A DNA stretch of 64,000 bases. Origin: Alphaproteobacteria bacterium 43-37. Its GTDB lineage: Bacteria > Pseudomonadota > Alphaproteobacteria > 43-37. Under the pieces are notes generated by a model. It was not told where the DNA came from. It did no database searches and saw only the letters and a list, made by a program, of their open reading frames with translations. The stretch covers positions 25,523-89,522 of the forward strand of contig MKSY01000014.1 in NCBI GenBank assembly GCA_001897475.1. Direction: 5' to 3'. Position numbers and translations under genes: made by a program. Shown here one piece after another: positions 5,700 through 62,832 of this stretch. The first letter of the stretch is position 1. Every line of letters begins with the position of its first letter.

Positions 5700-5789
5700 G
5701 GAGGGATGCCGGAGCGGTTGAACGGGGCGGTCTCGAAAACCGTTGTGCACGCAAGTGTACCCAGGGTTCGAATCCCTGTCCCTCCGCCA
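5700..5789 (+). tRNA. tRNA-Ser (anticodon CGA)
   Basis: 90-nt cloverleaf GGAGGGATGCCGGAGCGGTTGAACGG...CCTCCGCCA with a long variable arm. Anticodon loop CU-CGA-AA. Encoded CCA end. Confidence 0.9.
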
Positions 5790-6301: not shown

Positions 6302-6320
6302 CTTAGGCTCCACCTTTTGT

Positions 6321-6394
6321 CGTCCTCCTCGCTCTTTTCTCTGTCACCCTCGCTCTTTTCTCTGTCACCCTCGCGAAAGCGGGGGGCCATATAT
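6321..6394 (-). repeat. Dispersed composite intergenic repeat, copy A (reverse orientation): header atatggccccccgctttcgcgagggtgacag plus 2 x 21-bp units
   Basis: The reverse complement reads tatatggccccccgctttcgcgagggtgacagagaaaagagcgagggtgacagagaaaagagcgagg, matching the headers at 8763, 40347, 40492 and 55557. Confidence 0.75.
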
Positions 6395-8748: not shown

Positions 8749-8947
8749 GTAGGAATCCAGGTTTTTTATGGGCCCCCGCTTTCGCGAGGGTGACAGGGAA
8801 AAGAGCGAGGGTGACAGGGAAAAGCGGACACCCCTCATTGTCATTCCCGCAACCCTCCTTTTGTCTTCCCGGACACCTCCTTTTTGTCTTCCCGGGCACC
8901 ACACTTTTGTCTTCCCGCACTTGATGCGGGATCCAGGTTTTTTATTG
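8749..8947 (+). repeat. Dispersed composite intergenic repeat, copy B
   Basis: Left end ggaatccaggttttttatgggcccccgctttcgcgagggtgacag. Then 2 x 21-bp gggaaaagagcgagggtgaca units, 3 x ~22-bp cctccttttgtcttcccggaca units, and a right end cacttgatgcgggatccaggttttttattg. The 14-bp direct repeat atccaggtttttta sits at both ends. Confidence 0.8.
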
Positions 8948-35368: not shown

Positions 35369-35442
35369 TGGCTGGGGGACCTGGATTCGAACCAAGGTTC
35401 TCGGAGTCAGAGTCCGATGTTCTACCGCTAAACTATCCCCCA
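35369..35442 (-). tRNA. tRNA-Gln (anticodon CUG)
   Basis: The reverse complement TGGGGGATAGTTTAGCGGTAGAACATCGGACTCTGACTCCGAGAACCTTGGTTCGAATCCAGGTCCCCCAGCCA folds as a cloverleaf. Anticodon loop CU-CUG-AC. Confidence 0.85.
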
Positions 35443-40329: not shown

Positions 40330-40745
40330 ACAGGATCCAGAACTTATATGGCCCCCCGCTTTCGCGAGGGTGACAGCCCCCTCATTGTCTTGCCCGCACA
40401 CCTCCCTTTGTCTTTCCGCAACCCCTCTCTTTGTCTTGCCCGCACACCATTTTTTGTCTTCCCGGACGCAGATCCGGGATCCAGGCATTTATATGGCCCC
40501 CCGCTTTCGCGAGGGTGACAAGTGAGAGTACGGGGATGACAGGGAAGAAGTGCGAGGGTGTCAGGGAAAAGAGCGAGGGTGACAAGTGAGAGTGCGAGGG
40601 TGTCAGGGAAAAGAGCGAGGGTGTCAGGGAAAAGAGCGAGGGTAACAAGTGAGAGCGCGAGGGCGACAGGAAAAAGAGCGTGGCAGTGGAAAAGTGTGAG
40701 TGTGGCTGGCAGTGGAAAAGTGCGAGGAGGACAGGCTGGCTCCCG
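40330..40745 (+). repeat. Dispersed composite intergenic repeat, copy C: two headers plus ~22-bp units x4 and a ~10-unit array of 21-bp tandem repeats
   Basis: Header ggatccagaacttatatggccccccgctttcgcgagggtgaca at 40332, then 4 cctttgtcttKcccgcaca units. A second header at 40473. At 40511-40745 a tandem array alternates gagggtgtcagggaaaagagc and gagggtgacaagtgagagtgc. Confidence 0.8.
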
Positions 40746-51964: not shown

Positions 51965-52358
51965 GTGAGAGGGTCGGGCAGTTGCTACAGGAATTGCATT
52001 GAGCAGACTTAAGCTCCTGTAGAGGAAAGTCCGGGCTCCAGAGAGACAAGGTGCCGGGTAACGCCCGGCGAGGGTGACCTTAGGGAAAGTGCAACAGAAA
52101 ATATACCGCTTGGGCTCGTCTCAAGTAAGGGTGAAATGGTGCGGTAAGAGCGCACCGCACTGGCGGTAACGTTAGTGGCAGTGTAAACCCCACCTGGTGC
52201 AAGATCAAATAGGCGTATGGCGCTGCAACCAGCAGCAGGCAAGTCTCTCAGCCACATACGCGGGTAGATCGCTAAAGGTCCATAGCAATATGTACCTCAG
52301 ATGAATAGCTGCCGGCCTGAAAATGGCCACAGAACCCGGCTTACAGATCCTCTCAGTT
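51965..52358 (+). ncRNA. rnpB: RNase P RNA (bacterial type A)
   Basis: Universally conserved blocks read directly. GAGGAAAGTCCGGGCTCC (P4 5' strand), GCCGGGTAACGCCCGGC, AGTGCAACAGAAAA, GGTAAGGGTGAAATGGTGCGGTAAGAGCGCACC, GTAAACCCCACCTGGTGCAAG, ACAGAACCCGGCTTA (P4 3' strand). Ends pair as P1 (tgagagg / cctctca). Confidence 0.85.
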
Positions 52359-52483
52359 ACTAGCTCATACTAGCTCGTGATTTTTTGCAGATTATTTAAA
52401 ATGCTTAACATAAGTTCAGGAAAAGTGAGCTTCACATAAAACTTTATTCAAAAGCTTTTTGCACGCGGGCGCCCTGAATAAGG

Positions 52484-54963: not shown

Positions 54964-54990
54964 GCCCCTCGACATGAGGGGCTTTTTTTG
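54964..54990 (+). terminator. Rho-independent terminator
   Basis: gcccctc-gacat-gaggggc followed by TTTTTTT. Confidence 0.75.
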
Positions 54991-55040
54991 TGATGGCACC
55001 ACCTTGATTACTCGCAATTGTGGTTCTTTTCTCATCTCTT

Positions 55041-55187
55041 CCTTGCACACCGCCCTTTGTCTTTCCCGCGCACCTCCTTTTGGCCACCCCGGATGCCTCC
55101 TTTTGTCTTTCCCGCGCACCTCCTTTTGGCCACCCCGCACACCCCTCTTTGTCTTTCCCACACTTGATGCGGAACCCAGGCTTTTAT
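55041..55187 (+). repeat. Dispersed composite intergenic repeat, copy D (left half, interrupted)
   Basis: 2 x 43-bp ccctttgtctttcccgcgcacctccttttggccaccccg units, then cacttgatgcggaacccaggcttttat. This is the same right-end module as copy B. Confidence 0.7.
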
Positions 55188-55548
55188 CACTGCTGTCCGG
55201 GGAAAATAGAAGAGGAAGATCATGAGAATGCCCAAGAGAGTTGTTTGGTTAGTATAGGTACAGTTTTGGGAGGTTTTAAGGTGGGCTGAGAAAAGAGGCT
55301 TGTTCTGATTAGCACGCTCACATCTTTGATTTTAAAGCTTTTGCGATAACGAATCGGCCTGGTGGTGCTCAACGATGGACTGAAACGAGCGACGCGGAAG
55401 GCTCTTTAAAAGTTGAACGAATATGCTAGATTGGTACACGGAGCTGCTCCTGTTCAAAATGAAGTTTTAACACCCTCATTTTAACAGCAATCAAAGAGCA
55501 GCTCTATCCTTTTTAACCCTCATACTCTATTTTCCCCGGACAGCAGTG
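55188..55548. mobile_element. MITE-like non-autonomous insertion (361 bp) with 22-bp terminal inverted repeats
   Basis: TIR-L cactgctgtccggggaaaatag (55188-55209) and TIR-R ctattttccccggacagcagtg (55527-55548) are exact reverse complements. Flanks gcttttat / gctttttat look like an 8-9-bp target-site duplication. The insertion splits a repeat-family header that is contiguous at 40480-40503. Confidence 0.5.
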
Positions 55549-55646
55549 AGGCTTTTTATGGCCCCCCGCTTTCGCGAGGGTGACAGGAAAAAGAGCGAGG
55601 GTGACAGGAAAAAGAGCGAGGGTGACAAGAAAAAGAGCGAGGGTGC
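55549..55646 (+). repeat. Dispersed composite intergenic repeat, copy E (right half: header plus 4 x 21-bp units)
   Basis: aggctttttatggccccccgctttcgcgagggtgacaggaaaaagagcgagggtgacaggaaaaagagcgagggtgacaagaaaaagagcgagggtgc. Confidence 0.75.
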
Positions 55647-55706
55647 TTCTATGAAGAGTGTCAAGCATAATTTGGGATGTTCCGCCATAATTCATTCTTT
55701 TTAATG

Positions 55707-55798
55707 AGGCCAATAGCGCAATAGGATGACGCTGAGGTAACATGGATGAAAACGAGGCCAATAGCGCAATAGGATGACACTAAGGTAACATGGATGAA
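55707..55798 (+). repeat. 2 x ~45-bp direct repeat upstream of the sulP-like transporter gene
   Basis: gaggccaatagcgcaataggatgacRctRaggtaacatggatgaa occurs at 55707-55750 and 55754-55798, separated by 3 nt, with 2 mismatches. Confidence 0.7.
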
Positions 55799-55896: not shown

Positions 55897-57570
55897 ATGA
55901 TGAATTTCTTTGATTTTGTCCCAAAATCCATTAGCAGCCTTTCAAAAGGCTATTCCCTCGCGATGTTCCGCGGTGATTTTATGGCGGGCCTTACGGTTTC
56001 CATCGTTGCACTCCCACTTGCCATGGCCCTTGCCATTGCTTCTGGTACCACACCAGAAAAGGGGTTGTTTACAGCCATTATTGCAGGATTCTTGATTTCT
56101 CTTTTAGGTGGAAGCCGCCACCAAATTGGTGGGCCGACAGGTGCTTTTGTTGTCATTATTTATAATGTTATCGCTCAATTTGGTTACGAGGGGCTAGCCA
56201 TTGCCACCGTTATGGCTGGGATCATGCTTTTGATTGCTGGCATTTTGAAAGTGGGTACAATCATCCGTTTCATCCCCCAACCCGTTGTCACTGGATTCAC
56301 ATCCGGCATTGCTATTGTTCTTTTTACTGGACAAATAAAAAGCCTGTTGGGCCTCAGCATCGAAAATATGCCTGCTGACTTTGTTGATCGATGGGTTGTC
56401 TATTGGCAACACATACAAACAATTCATTGGCCTACCCTCATGATTGGCGGCGTTTCACTTGCCATTTTGTTTGTGTTGCAATCTTTAAAGGTAAGACTCC
56501 CATCATTTCTCATTGTCATGACGTTAGGAGGTGGGATTGTCTGGCTCTTTGGGGTCCCAGTTGATACCATTGGTTCTAAATTTGGCCAGATCCCAAAAAC
56601 TTTACCTGTACCATATTTTCCACATATTACATGGGAGAAGATTGTTCTCCTCCTTCCTTCTGCCTTCACAATCGCTTTCTTAGCTGGGATTGAATCTCTA
56701 CTCTCAGCTATGATCGCCGATGGTATGACAGGCAGACGACATCGGCCCAATGCTGAACTATTAGCCCAAGGTGTAGCTAATATTGCCTCTGTATGTTTTT
56801 GCGGGATACCCGCCACTGGAGCCATTGCTCGCACTATCACAAACATTCGCTCCGGCGCACAAACACCTCTAGCGGGCATAATTCATTCGGCGTTGCTCCT
56901 GTTATTCATGTGGTTCTTATCACCCATTGTTGGCTGGATCCCTCTCACCTCTCTTGCTGCCGTAATGATCATAGTAGCATGGAACATGAGCGAGATTGAA
57001 CATTTTCGTTATCTCATGTCAGCCCCTAAAAGTGATCGTGCTGTTTTGTTGATCACGTTCTTTTTGACCATCATGGTCGATCTGACAATCGCTGTCCAAG
57101 TTGGCATCACGTTAGCTGCATTACTCTTTATGAAGCGCATGAACGACGTTACAGCCATTCAAACAGGCGTATCCATTTTGAAAAGTACCGCGAATGAGAA
57201 AACTGACAGCCTTCCACCCAAAATGCCAGAGGGCGTAGAGGCTTTTCAAATAACGGGACCTTTCTTTTTCTGTGTGGCCAACCGGCTCAAGGATGAGTTA
57301 GCAAAAATCCGCGGGATCCCTAAGGTATTTATCCTCCGCATGCGTCATGTCCCTACCATGGATGCCACTGCGGCTCATACGCTACTCAGTTTCATCAAGA
57401 AAAGCCAACAACGCGGTACTCACGTTATTTTTGCAGCCGTCCAAGAACAACCGCTCAAAGTAATGAAACAAATGAAGATTCATAAGCTAATTAGCCCCGA
57501 AAACTTTGTTAGTTCCACAGTTGATGCCATTAAGAGAGCCCAAAAAATCTTAGAAAGCGAGAAGACTTAA
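55897..57570 (+). CDS. SulP family inorganic anion transporter with C-terminal STAS domain
   Basis: 557 aa. Polytopic N-terminal domain with SulP motifs (GLTVSIVALPLAMALAIASG) and C-terminal STAS fold. Confidence 0.85.
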   Translation: MMNFFDFVPKSISSLSKGYSLAMFRGDFMAGLTVSIVALPLAMALAIASGTTPEKGLFTAIIAGFLISLLGGSRHQIGGPTGAFVVIIYNVIAQFGYEGLAIATVMAGIMLLIAGILKVGTIIRFIPQPVVTGFTSGIAIVLFTGQIKSLLGLSIENMPADFVDRWVVYWQHIQTIHWPTLMIGGVSLAILFVLQSLKVRLPSFLIVMTLGGGIVWLFGVPVDTIGSKFGQIPKTLPVPYFPHITWEKIVLLLPSAFTIAFLAGIESLLSAMIADGMTGRRHRPNAELLAQGVANIASVCFCGIPATGAIARTITNIRSGAQTPLAGIIHSALLLLFMWFLSPIVGWIPLTSLAAVMIIVAWNMSEIEHFRYLMSAPKSDRAVLLITFFLTIMVDLTIAVQVGITLAALLFMKRMNDVTAIQTGVSILKSTANEKTDSLPPKMPEGVEAFQITGPFFFCVANRLKDELAKIRGIPKVFILRMRHVPTMDATAAHTLLSFIKKSQQRGTHVIFAAVQEQPLKVMKQMKIHKLISPENFVSSTVDAIKRAQKILESEKT

Positions 57571-62755: not shown

Positions 62756-62832
62756 GCACCCGTAGCTCAGCTGGATAGAGTGCTGCCCTCCGAAGGCAGA
62801 GGTCGTGAGTTCGAATCTCGCCGGGTGCGCCA
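62756..62832 (+). tRNA. tRNA-Arg (anticodon CCG)
   Basis: GCACCCGTAGCTCAGCTGGATAGAGTGCTGCCCTCCGAAGGCAGAGGTCGTGAGTTCGAATCTCGCCGGGTGCGCCA. Anticodon loop CU-CCG-AA. Encoded CCA end. Confidence 0.9.

What the first reader, a model, noticed from the sequence alone, without database searches (positions are those of the whole stretch)
55188..55548. MITE-like insertion caught inside a repeat-family copy (22-bp perfect TIRs, putative 8-9-bp TSD)
The header (GA/GG)tccaggcWtttat|(at)ggccccccgc is contiguous at 40480-40503 and 8930-8945. At 55171-55570 the same header is split by 361 bp. That block is bounded by exact inverted repeats, cactgctgtccggggaaaatag at 55188-55209 and its reverse complement at 55527-55548. 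The flanking sequence gcttttat | gctttttat is duplicated, as expected for a target-site duplication. The element has no ORF beyond a few codons, so it would be non-autonomous and depend on a transposase elsewhere. The intact-site versus filled-site comparison inside one window is strong internal evidence of real mobility.
Basis: seen in the sequence. Interest (0 to 1): 0.6.

Follow-up and report, generated by a model that had tools for sequence, protein, structure and literature searches.

The report
IS4-derived MITE inside a REP-like repeat
A 361-bp non-autonomous transposon (an internally deleted IS4-family insertion sequence) has inserted into a palindromic intergenic repeat of an uncultured alphaproteobacterium; it is a real mobile-element insertion, but of an ordinary, already known kind.

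Summary
Window 55188-55548 is a 361-bp element with perfect 23-nt terminal inverted repeats. It is flanked by a 10/11-bp target-site duplication (AGGCTTTTAT / AGGCTTTTTAT) and splits a repeat-family header that is contiguous at three other window sites. At least four further loci in the same species ("Alphaproteobacteria bacterium 43-37", not Coxiella) carry copies that are 92-98% identical. These copies end exactly at CACTG...CAGTG, and two have perfect 11-bp duplications (GCATCAAGTGC).

The minus strand holds the in-frame remnant of an IS4-family transposase: about 36 N-terminal DUF4372 codons fused to about 36 C-terminal codons. This ORF is 72 codons in the other copies and frameshifted here, and it is evolving neutrally. 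The element is therefore an internal-deletion derivative of an IS of about 1.3 kb.

The 20-nt end CACTGCTGTCCGGGGAAAAT occurs exactly in more than 120 stretches of genomes from several phyla. There it bounds two full-length 1.3-kb IS4 elements and many short lineage-specific MITEs. In Proteobacteria these mostly sit in REP-like palindromes with 10-bp duplications. All copies in this species lie inside one REP-like mosaic repeat.

I found no intact partner transposase, only a 5'-truncated relic. Verdict: a new member of a known kind, of modest interest.

The parts
55188..55548 (-). The MITE itself: 361 bp here, 360 bp in all other copies. Strand is that of the transposase remnant.
   Evidence: Copies at L125, L127, L128/L129 and L130 align to exactly this span at 92-98% identity, and their flanks are unrelated to the window's.
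55188..55210 (+). Left terminal inverted repeat, CACTGCTGTCCGGGGAAAATAGA. It lies at the 3' end of the transposase remnant (the IRR position), but here it carries the IRL-type sequence.
   Evidence: Other copies have the variant ...GGGGAAAGTTGAG at one end.
55526..55548 (-). Right terminal inverted repeat (the IRL position, upstream of the remnant's start codon).
   Evidence: In the full-length relatives L088 and L092, the ...GGGGAAAAT end is the one upstream of the transposase start.
55178..55187 (.). Left copy of the target-site duplication, AGGCTTTTAT.
   Evidence: The sequence is single-copy in intact headers.
55549..55559 (.). Right copy of the target-site duplication, AGGCTTTTTAT (one extra T in the T-run).
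55220..55439 (-). Remnant transposase ORF: about 36 N-terminal DUF4372 codons fused in frame to about 36 C-terminal codons. It is 72 codons in other copies. In the window an extra A at about 55352 breaks it into the 41-aa and 50-aa ORFs.
   Evidence: Pfam PF14294 DUF4372 gives E 7.7e-8 and 32.9 bits (cut-off 25) for the L001 version. The C-terminal half is 72% identical to the C-terminus of P0124. The indel is seen. Codon-position counts of 6/8/7 indicate neutral evolution.
55020..55187 (+). Left part of the host REP-like mosaic repeat: a 23-nt tandem array (TRF 55045-55163), a degenerate hairpin TCCCACActtgaTGCGGAA at 55159-55177, and the left half of the header.
55549..55650 (+). Right part of the host repeat: the right half of the header, GGCCCCCCGCTTTCGCGAGGGTGAC (55560-55584), and a 21-nt tandem array (55574-55645).

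Best explanation
The 361-bp block is a MITE. It is a non-autonomous derivative of an IS4-family insertion sequence of about 1.3 kb (IS4Sa-like; ISGme2 and ISPosp4 are the nearest named relatives of the full-length elements that share its ends).

A single internal deletion removed about 1 kb, including the whole DDE catalytic domain. What remains is both TIRs, the 5' untranslated region, the first ~36 codons and the last ~36 codons plus the 3' end.

The deleted derivative then multiplied in this species by ordinary DDE transposition, supplied in trans by a transposase that recognises the conserved CACTGCTGTCCGGGG... ends. Staggered target cuts 10-11 bp apart gave the duplication.

Its targets are the central, hairpin-bearing part of a REP-like mosaic repeat. 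This matches what elements with the same ends do in other Proteobacteria.

Shown: the anatomy, copy number, boundaries, TSDs, parentage and association with the repeat. Inferred: mobilisation in trans, recognition of the target by the transposase, and present inactivity.
For: The TIRs are perfect and unique in the window. The 10/11-bp duplication abuts both ends, and the reconstructed empty site is colinear with an intact paralogue.

There are five distinct loci in the same species, with identity confined to 55188-55548. The loci are the window, L127, L128=L129, L125 and L130. L129, L130 and the window's SulP gene (L134) all come from MAG GCA_017308305.1. L125 encodes P0002, which is annotated 'Alphaproteobacteria bacterium 43-37'.

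Two loci have perfect 11-bp TSDs, in the opposite orientation relative to the host repeat and 7 bp away from the window's site, so these are independent insertions. All copies share the same deletion junction.

The remnant matches DUF4372 and aligns to both the N- and C-termini of full-length transposases. The 3' 140 nt of the element are 76% identical to the 3' end of a truncated IS4 transposase relic with IRR in the same species.

The full-length ISs with the same 20-nt end are L092 (1328 bp, 9-bp TSD) and L088 (1324 bp). Their transposases score 273 and 259 bits on NF033592 'IS4 family transposase'.

The ends CA......T and a TSD of about 10 bp fit the IS4/IS4Sa rows of Table 1 in PMC2266710. 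Contigs L002 and L003 break inside the element, as assemblers do at repeats.
Against: No intact cognate transposase was found for this lineage. A word-indexed search of 5.8 billion proteins returned only 72-aa MITE ORFs. A full HMMER scan of 1.84 billion representatives gave only fragments.

No empty-site allele of this exact locus was found in any assembly, so the filled-versus-empty comparison rests on paralogues.

The window's TSD is imperfect (a one-T difference). The insertion lies beside a degenerate hairpin rather than within it.

L127 and L128 share the same TSD. Some copy gain could therefore come from duplication of host repeat plus element rather than from transposition. L125 lacks a matching TSD.
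Confidence: 0.9

Rival explanations
1. The block is ordinary unique intergenic DNA that happens to lie between the right half of one host repeat and the left half of another. The inverted arms would then be a local hairpin (for example a regulatory or terminator structure), not transposon ends.
For: Host repeats do occur as half units elsewhere, at 6315-6391 and 40495-40740. The element folds better than shuffles, with z = -5.3, although that is due almost entirely to the terminal arms.
Against: Four further loci carry the same 360 bp with exactly the same ends in different flanks, two of them with perfect 11-bp duplications. The interior encodes a transposase remnant. The same 20-nt end bounds full-length ISs elsewhere. 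There is no Rfam match.
Confidence: 0.02
2. The element is real, but its spread in this genome owes more to the host REP-like repeat than to transposition. After one or two insertions, element plus repeat would have been copied together by recombination, gene conversion or propagation of the repeat. The apparent target preference would then be hitch-hiking.
For: L127 and L128 have the same TSD, GCATCAAGTGC. L125 and L127 share 60 nt of identical right flank and the same element variants. L125 has no matching TSD. The IRL- and IRR-type ends are shuffled among copies, which points to recombination or conversion.
Against: The window copy sits at a different position in the host repeat, with a different TSD and the opposite orientation. 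L130 and the left junction of L125 are different again, giving at least four distinct left junctions. In unrelated genomes, elements with these ends are also found in REP-like palindromes with 10-bp TSDs. There are 155 unique flanks with a strong consensus, and 15 of 44 pairs have perfect 10-bp repeats. This argues that the transposase chooses the target.
Confidence: 0.15
3. It is a member of the Coxiella burnetii MITE families QMITE1 or QMITE2. The window's G+C content, the size of the element and the repeat-rich context suggested this at first sight.
For: G+C is about 43%. QMITE1 is 300-400 bp with 21-28-nt TIRs.
Against: The window's genes are found only on contigs of an uncultured alphaproteobacterium, 43-37. 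QMITE1 has 2-4-bp direct repeats and is palindromic throughout, with a predicted dG of about -190 kcal/mol. This element has a 10/11-bp TSD and only its ends pair, with a dG of -60 kcal/mol. QMITE2 is 150-190 bp.
Confidence: 0.01

Closest known systems
IS4 family, IS4Sa-like clade: ISGme2 (Geobacter metallireducens), ISPosp4 (Polaromonas sp. JS666), and the unnamed full-length ISs in L092 and L088
   Same: The end sequence matches: CACT(G/A)CTGTCCGG..., with the 20-mer exact at the IRL of L088 and L092. The ends start 5'-CA with T at position 9. The TSD is 9-11 bp. The transposase N-terminus is of DUF4372 type and the C-terminus has the ...NQL..F.. motif.
   Different: Those elements are autonomous, 1314-1328 bp, with a 389-398-aa DDE transposase. 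This one has lost about 1 kb, including the catalytic domain. Its remnant is only distantly similar in sequence to those transposases. No close full-length parent was found.
ISRm22 of Sinorhizobium meliloti (IS4 family, IS4Sa subgroup), a REP-targeting IS (Tobes and Pareja 2006, PMC1525189)
   Same: It is an IS4-family element whose copies all lie inside REP palindromes, inserted at the axis of the palindrome. Recombinant copies with mismatched direct repeats are also seen. The copies at L127 and L128, and most proteobacterial elements with this TIR, behave the same way.
   Different: ISRm22 is autonomous and is reported with 6-bp direct repeats. I did not test its sequence relationship to this element. 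The Sinorhizobium hits to the L092 transposase were annotated ISRm16, at about 34% identity. The window copy sits beside the hairpin, not in it.
QMITE1 / QMITE2 of Coxiella burnetii (Wachter et al. 2018, PMC5896051)
   Same: These are bacterial MITEs of a few hundred bp in an intracellular-type genome. QMITE2 contains a REP that is itself a target for another mobile element (IS1111), so it shows the same kind of nesting of mobile element within repeat.
   Different: The organism, the sequence and the parent family differ. QMITE1 has 2-4-bp DRs and is a long palindrome. In Coxiella the MITE is the target, whereas here the MITE is the invader.
Other REP-specific ISs: IS1397/ISKpn1 (IS3 family) and ISPpu9/ISPpu10/ISPa11 (IS110 family)
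   Same: They insert preferentially into repetitive extragenic palindromes (IS1397/ISKpn1 from my own knowledge).
   Different: They belong to different transposase families with different chemistry. IS110 elements use a DEDD enzyme and make no TSD of this kind.

Membership tests
MITE (miniature inverted-repeat transposable element) | Terminal inverted repeats | tested here: met
   23-nt perfect TIRs at 55188-55210 and 55526-55548.
MITE (miniature inverted-repeat transposable element) | Target-site duplication directly abutting both ends | tested here: met
   AGGCTTTTAT / AGGCTTTTTAT in the window. GCATCAAGTGC, 11/11, at L127 and at L128/L129.
MITE (miniature inverted-repeat transposable element) | Small size and no functional transposase gene | tested here: met
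   The element is 360-361 bp. It holds only a 72-codon fusion of the two transposase ends, which lacks the DDE domain, is frameshifted in the window and is evolving neutrally.
MITE (miniature inverted-repeat transposable element) | Several copies with the same boundaries at different genomic sites | tested here: met
   Five loci in the same species at 92-98% identity, with identity ending exactly at the TIRs.
MITE (miniature inverted-repeat transposable element) | A cognate autonomous element with matching ends, able to mobilise it, in the same genome | tested here: inconclusive
   Matching ends occur on full-length ISs in other phyla (L088, L092). In this species I found only a 5'-truncated relic (L136/L137). 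All assemblies are fragmented MAGs, which often lose multi-copy ISs.
IS4 family (IS4Sa-like) derivative | Ends of the IS4Sa pattern (CA------T) and a TSD of about 8-10 bp (IS4 family about 10 bp) | tested here: met
   CACTGCTGT... has CA at positions 1-2 and T at position 9. The TSD is 10-11 bp here, and 9-10 bp in relatives. Compared with Table 1 of PMC2266710.
IS4 family (IS4Sa-like) derivative | Homology of the coding remnant to IS4-family transposases | tested here: met
   DUF4372 gives E 7.7e-8. The C-terminal half is 72% identical to the C-terminus of P0124, which carries PF01609 DDE_Tnp_1. The 3' 140 nt are 76% identical to that relic's 3' end including the IRR.
IS4 family (IS4Sa-like) derivative | DDE catalytic triad and YREK motif | not testable with these tools
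   The catalytic region is deleted from the element. The TIR-sharing full-length relatives pass NF033592 at 273 and 259 bits against a cut-off of 115.
REP-targeting insertion elements | Insertion inside a repeated extragenic palindrome at a defined position | tested here: inconclusive
   Met for L127 and L128: the TSD is the centre of TTCCC-GCATCAAGTGC-GGGAA. It is also met as a consensus over 155 flanks in other genomes. The window copy is inside the host repeat but 7 bp to one side of a degenerate hairpin. Copies in non-proteobacterial genomes lie in AT-rich, non-REP flanks.
Coxiella QMITE1/QMITE2 | Coxiella host; QMITE1 has 2-4-bp DRs and a palindrome along its whole length; QMITE2 is 150-190 bp | tested here: not met
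   The host is alphaproteobacterium 43-37. The TSD is 10/11 bp. Only the ends pair.

The most novel reading that the evidence does not exclude
The nearly invariant 20-nt end CACTGCTGTCCGGGGAAAAT may mark a cross-phylum superfamily of IS4Sa-type elements, seemingly not described as such. Its members would repeatedly decay into lineage-specific MITEs with unrelated interiors. In Proteobacteria their transposase would read a conserved REP hairpin (CGTCATYCCSGC-N4-GCSGGRATGACG type) as its target and cut 10 bp apart around the axis. The window's mosaic repeat would then be this organism's version of that widespread REP, and the MITE a tracer of a structure-specific targeting mechanism in a DDE transposase.
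Probability: 0.3. Interest if true: 0.5.

Novelty: new member of a known kind. Interest (0 to 1): 0.3.

Why it matters
For this genome, it explains a 361-bp interruption in the 959-bp spacer upstream of a SulP transporter gene. It also flags a repeat that breaks short-read assemblies of this organism.

More generally, it adds one well-documented case of two things. The first is a MITE whose origin by a single internal deletion of an IS4-family element can be mapped to within a codon or so. The second is an IS4-type element that lands in REP-like repeats.

The wider observation could be useful to people who study target choice by DDE transposases. The same 20-nt end occurs across several phyla, usually on short orphan elements inside a conserved palindrome. 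It extends known behaviour (ISRm22) and does not overturn anything.

Tried and rejected
1. Coxiella QMITE hypothesis. G+C content, size and repeat context prompted it. I rejected it after reading PMC5896051 and finding the window's genes only in alphaproteobacterium 43-37.
2. Other copies within the window. There are none: blastn of the element against the window finds only itself.
3. Rfam. Nothing scores at gathering level in the element, and the one sub-threshold hit has E 0.44.
4. Promoter and terminator scan. Counts are not above the shuffles, so I make no functional claim.
5. Close autonomous parent. The word-indexed protein search returned only three 72-aa clusters. The exhaustive HMMER scan returned only fragments. 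NCBIfam found nothing for the 72-aa remnant.
6. Empty-site allele in a related strain. All assemblies that carry the identical SulP gene are either filled or break at the repeat. The next-closest SulP orthologues are 68% identical and not syntenic.
7. Selection on the 72-aa ORF, as a possible TIR-binding regulator. Substitutions are spread 6/8/7 over codon positions 1, 2 and 3, so there is no sign of purifying selection.
8. Link to ISRm22 by sequence. The plasmid search returned ISRm16 rather than ISRm22, so the relation to ISRm22 is an analogy only.
9. Literature search for the TIR string. No relevant paper turned up.
10. L018's 1575-bp 'pair'. It encloses an unrelated transposase ORF (by eye an rve/IS481-type integrase; not run against any profile), not the cognate IS4 transposase, and is probably a nested insertion or a chance pairing.

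Full report
**Observation**

Window 55188-55548 is bounded by exact inverted repeats. The repeat finder reports 24-nt arms, 100% complementary, at 55187-55210 and 55526-55549.

The flanks read ...GGAACCC AGGCTTTTAT | CACTG...CAGTG | AGGCTTTTTAT GGCCCCCCGC....

The header of the surrounding repeat family is uninterrupted at 40480-40503, and also at 8753-8775 and 40333-40355. If the element and one duplicate are deleted, the locus aligns colinearly on both sides with the intact paralogue at 40430-40560.

**Organism**

The G+C content of about 43% and the repeat-rich look suggested Coxiella and its QMITEs, so I read that paper. The neighbouring SulP gene (55897-57570), however, is found only on metagenome contigs of an uncultured alphaproteobacterium. 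These are KANT15-1 scaffold_355 and a contig labelled Alphaproteobacteria_43_37_sp001897475.

QMITE1 has 2-4-bp direct repeats and is palindromic over its whole length. This element has a 10/11-bp duplication, and only its ends pair. The Coxiella families are excluded.

**More copies**

An element-specific 24-mer found three further copies on JGI contigs. The 72-aa protein search led to two more loci in MAG GCA_017308305.1. After merging the same locus seen in different assemblies, there are five distinct loci:
- the window (also seen as L001 and L004);
- L127;
- L128, which is the same locus as L129;
- L125;
- L130.

Identity is 92-98% and stops exactly at CACTG and CAGTG, which fixes the element at 55188-55548. 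All other copies are 360 bp. The window has one extra A at about 55352.

L127 and L128 each have a perfect 11-bp duplication, GCATCAAGTGC. L125 has mismatched flanks, as expected for a recombinant. L130 runs off its contig.

The loci belong to one species. L129, L130 and a contig carrying the window's SulP protein (L134) all come from GCA_017308305.1. L125 encodes P0002, which is annotated as Alphaproteobacteria bacterium 43-37. Contigs L002 and L003 start inside the element, which is typical of assembly breaks at repeats.

**What the element is**

The gene call on L001 at the equivalent place is a 72-aa product with PF14294 (DUF4372). I confirmed this match at E 7.7e-8 and 32.9 bits against a cut-off of 25. 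DUF4372 is the N-terminal domain of a large group of IS4-family transposases.

The 72 residues align to full-length transposases at their first ~50 residues and again at their extreme C-terminus. An exhaustive HMMER scan found P0124, a 125-aa C-terminal transposase fragment, 72% identical to residues 36-71 of the remnant.

P0124 is encoded in the same species (accessions; loci L136 and L137). There it is followed by an IRR ending ...CCCCGGACAGTAGTG. The last 140 nt of that relic are 76% identical to positions 221-360 of the element in ORF orientation, which places the deletion junction at about codon 36/37.

The element therefore consists of the IRL, a 5' UTR of about 86 nt, about 36 N-terminal codons, about 36 C-terminal codons, a short 3' tail and the IRR. 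About 1 kb, including the DDE domain, has been lost.

Among the copies, substitutions fall 6/8/7 on codon positions 1, 2 and 3. The ORF is thus a neutral relic, and in the window it is frameshifted.

**Family**

The hosts include:
- Gammaproteobacteria (Dyella, Dokdonella, Lysobacterales);
- Betaproteobacteria (Rhizobacter, Neisseria, Viridibacterium);
- Alphaproteobacteria;
- Lentisphaeria;
- Bacteroidota;
- Acidobacteriota;
- Bdellovibrionota;
- Desulfobacterota;
- Omnitrophota.

Two loci hold full-length elements. L092 is 1328 bp with a 9-bp TSD, and L088 is 1324 bp. Each has a 395-398-aa transposase that scores 273 and 259 bits on NF033592, 'IS4 family transposase'.

The nearest named relatives of those transposases are ISGme2 and ISPosp4, at about 58% identity. 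Their ends are CACTACTGTCCGGTT... and CAGTAGTGTCCGGTT..., and their TSDs are 9 bp. IS4Sa itself is a distant hit.

The ends fit the IS4Sa row of Table 1 in 'IS4 family goes genomic' (CA------T, DR 8-10 bp, 1150-1750 bp). They also fit that paper's statement that IS4-family members make duplications of about 10 bp.

Most other occurrences of the end are pairs 140-650 bp apart, that is lineage-specific MITE-like elements. Their interiors share nothing with this one beyond the ends.

**Target**

All five loci in this species lie inside copies of one mosaic repeat. That repeat consists of a 23-nt tandem array, a hairpin (TCCCGCA-cttga-TGCGGGA at 8913-8931), the header GGATCCAGGYTTTTAT, the module GGCCCCCCGCTTTCGCGAGGGTGAC, and a 21-nt tandem array.

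In the window this repeat covers roughly 1 kb of 64 kb. Five of five insertions falling there by chance is very unlikely, although selection against genic insertions inflates the contrast. This is my estimate, not a tool result.

At L127 and L128 the duplicated 11 bp is the centre of the hairpin, TTCCC-GCATCAAGTGC-GGGAA. There the element is in the opposite orientation relative to the repeat than in the window.

In the window the hairpin is degenerate (TCCCACA...TGCGGAA), and the insertion lies 7 bp to its right, in CCC-AGGCTTTTTAT-GG.

Across the other genomes, 155 unique flanks of the conserved end give the consensus CGTCATYCCSGCGWWSGCS|CACTG, which is half of a REP-like palindrome. Of 44 pairs, 15 have perfect 10-bp direct repeats whose non-palindromic centre is in direct orientation, so they are duplications and not longer TIRs. 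Copies in Bacteroidota, Lentisphaeria and Omnitrophota lie in AT-rich, non-palindromic flanks.

REP targeting by an IS4-family element is already known for ISRm22. All ten of its copies lie at the axis of S. meliloti REPs, and some are recombinants with mismatched repeats.

**Mechanism**

I propose a DDE cut-and-paste (or copy-out) reaction supplied in trans. An IS4-type transposase would bind the conserved ends through its N-terminal domain. Staggered cleavage 10-11 bp apart would follow, at a target favoured by the REP hairpin or its sequence.

This part is inferred from family knowledge and from the anatomy; nothing here tests it. No intact partner was found in this species or anywhere close in sequence. 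The only resident relative is 5'-truncated and sits next to IS5-type genes. The family may therefore be fossil in this lineage, or the partner may be missing from fragmented MAGs.

**Function**

I found no evidence that the element has been co-opted. There is no Rfam family. Promoter-like and terminator-like sites are not above the shuffles. The fold is dominated by the terminal stem.

The element lies in the 959-bp spacer between the terminator of the 340-aa ORF (54964-54990) and the SulP start (55897).

**Verdict**

It is a new member of a known kind: an IS4-derived MITE inserted into a REP-like repeat. The cross-phylum conservation of the end, and its association with one palindrome type, is the only aspect that goes beyond routine annotation.

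Noticed in passing
window 6315-6391 (-), 8753-8945, 40333-40740, 55020-55650: This is a REP/BIME-like mosaic repeat family. It has 23-nt tandem arrays (TTGTCTTCCCGCAAACCTCCTTT) and 21-nt tandem arrays (GCGAGGGTGACAGGGAAAAGA) that are loosely inverse to each other. They are joined by a short hairpin and a GGATCCAGGYTTTTAT header that can flank a unit on both sides. Array copy number varies from 2 to 8. The GCGGGAATGACG-type core resembles REPs seen around the same TIR in other Proteobacteria.
   Followed up: partly
L005-L124 (GTDB genomes); e.g. L005, L017, L050, L072, L079 (336 bp); L010, L019, L042, L043 (213-215 bp): The exact 20-nt end CACTGCTGTCCGGGGAAAAT bounds many short, lineage-specific MITE-like elements in several phyla. 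Full-length IS4 transposase genes lie next to it in only 2 of 120 loci. The complete genomes of Dokdonella sp. MW10 and Dyella nitratireducens show only short copies among the hits.
   Followed up: partly
element ends: window 55188-55215 and 55520-55548; L127, L125, L128, L130: There are two end variants, ...GGGGAAAATAGAG and ...GGGGAAAGTTGAG. They are distributed in all combinations: the window has A/A, L127 has B/A and L128 has A/B. This suggests conversion or recombination between the two ends, or between copies.
   Followed up: no
window 55329, 55352, 55387 vs L001: All three differences between the window and the KANT15-1 contig over 2.2 kb fall inside the element, while the flanks are identical. 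This is consistent with gene conversion among copies, or with assembly consensus drawn from several copies.
   Followed up: no
window 55706-55798: A 48-bp unit (GAGGCCAATAGCGCAATAGGATGAC...) is tandemly duplicated, 1.9 copies at 95% identity, about 100 bp upstream of the SulP start codon. It is unrelated to the MITE or the host repeat.
   Followed up: no
L136 1-2645 / L137 (same species, other locus): This region looks like an IS graveyard. A 5'-truncated IS4-type transposase relic with its IRR abuts one partial and one full-length (382-aa) gene with DUF772 + DDE_Tnp_1 (IS5-type by my reading of that domain pair). Both contigs end about 240 bp upstream of the P0124 gene.
   Followed up: partly
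L018 4453-6027 (Neisseria sp. HSC-16F19): A pair of the conserved ends 1575 bp apart, with a perfect 10-bp TSD (CGCGTTCGCG) in an ATTCCCGCGTTCGCGGGAAT palindrome, encloses a 369-aa ORF that is not the IS4 transposase. By eye it looks like an rve-type integrase; I did not run it against any profile. It may be a second IS nested in a MITE.
   Followed up: no
window 51966-52359; 5700-5786, 35372-35442, 62756-62829: There is an RNase P RNA (class A, 314.6 bits) and three tRNA genes. These are ordinary housekeeping features of the window.
   Followed up: no
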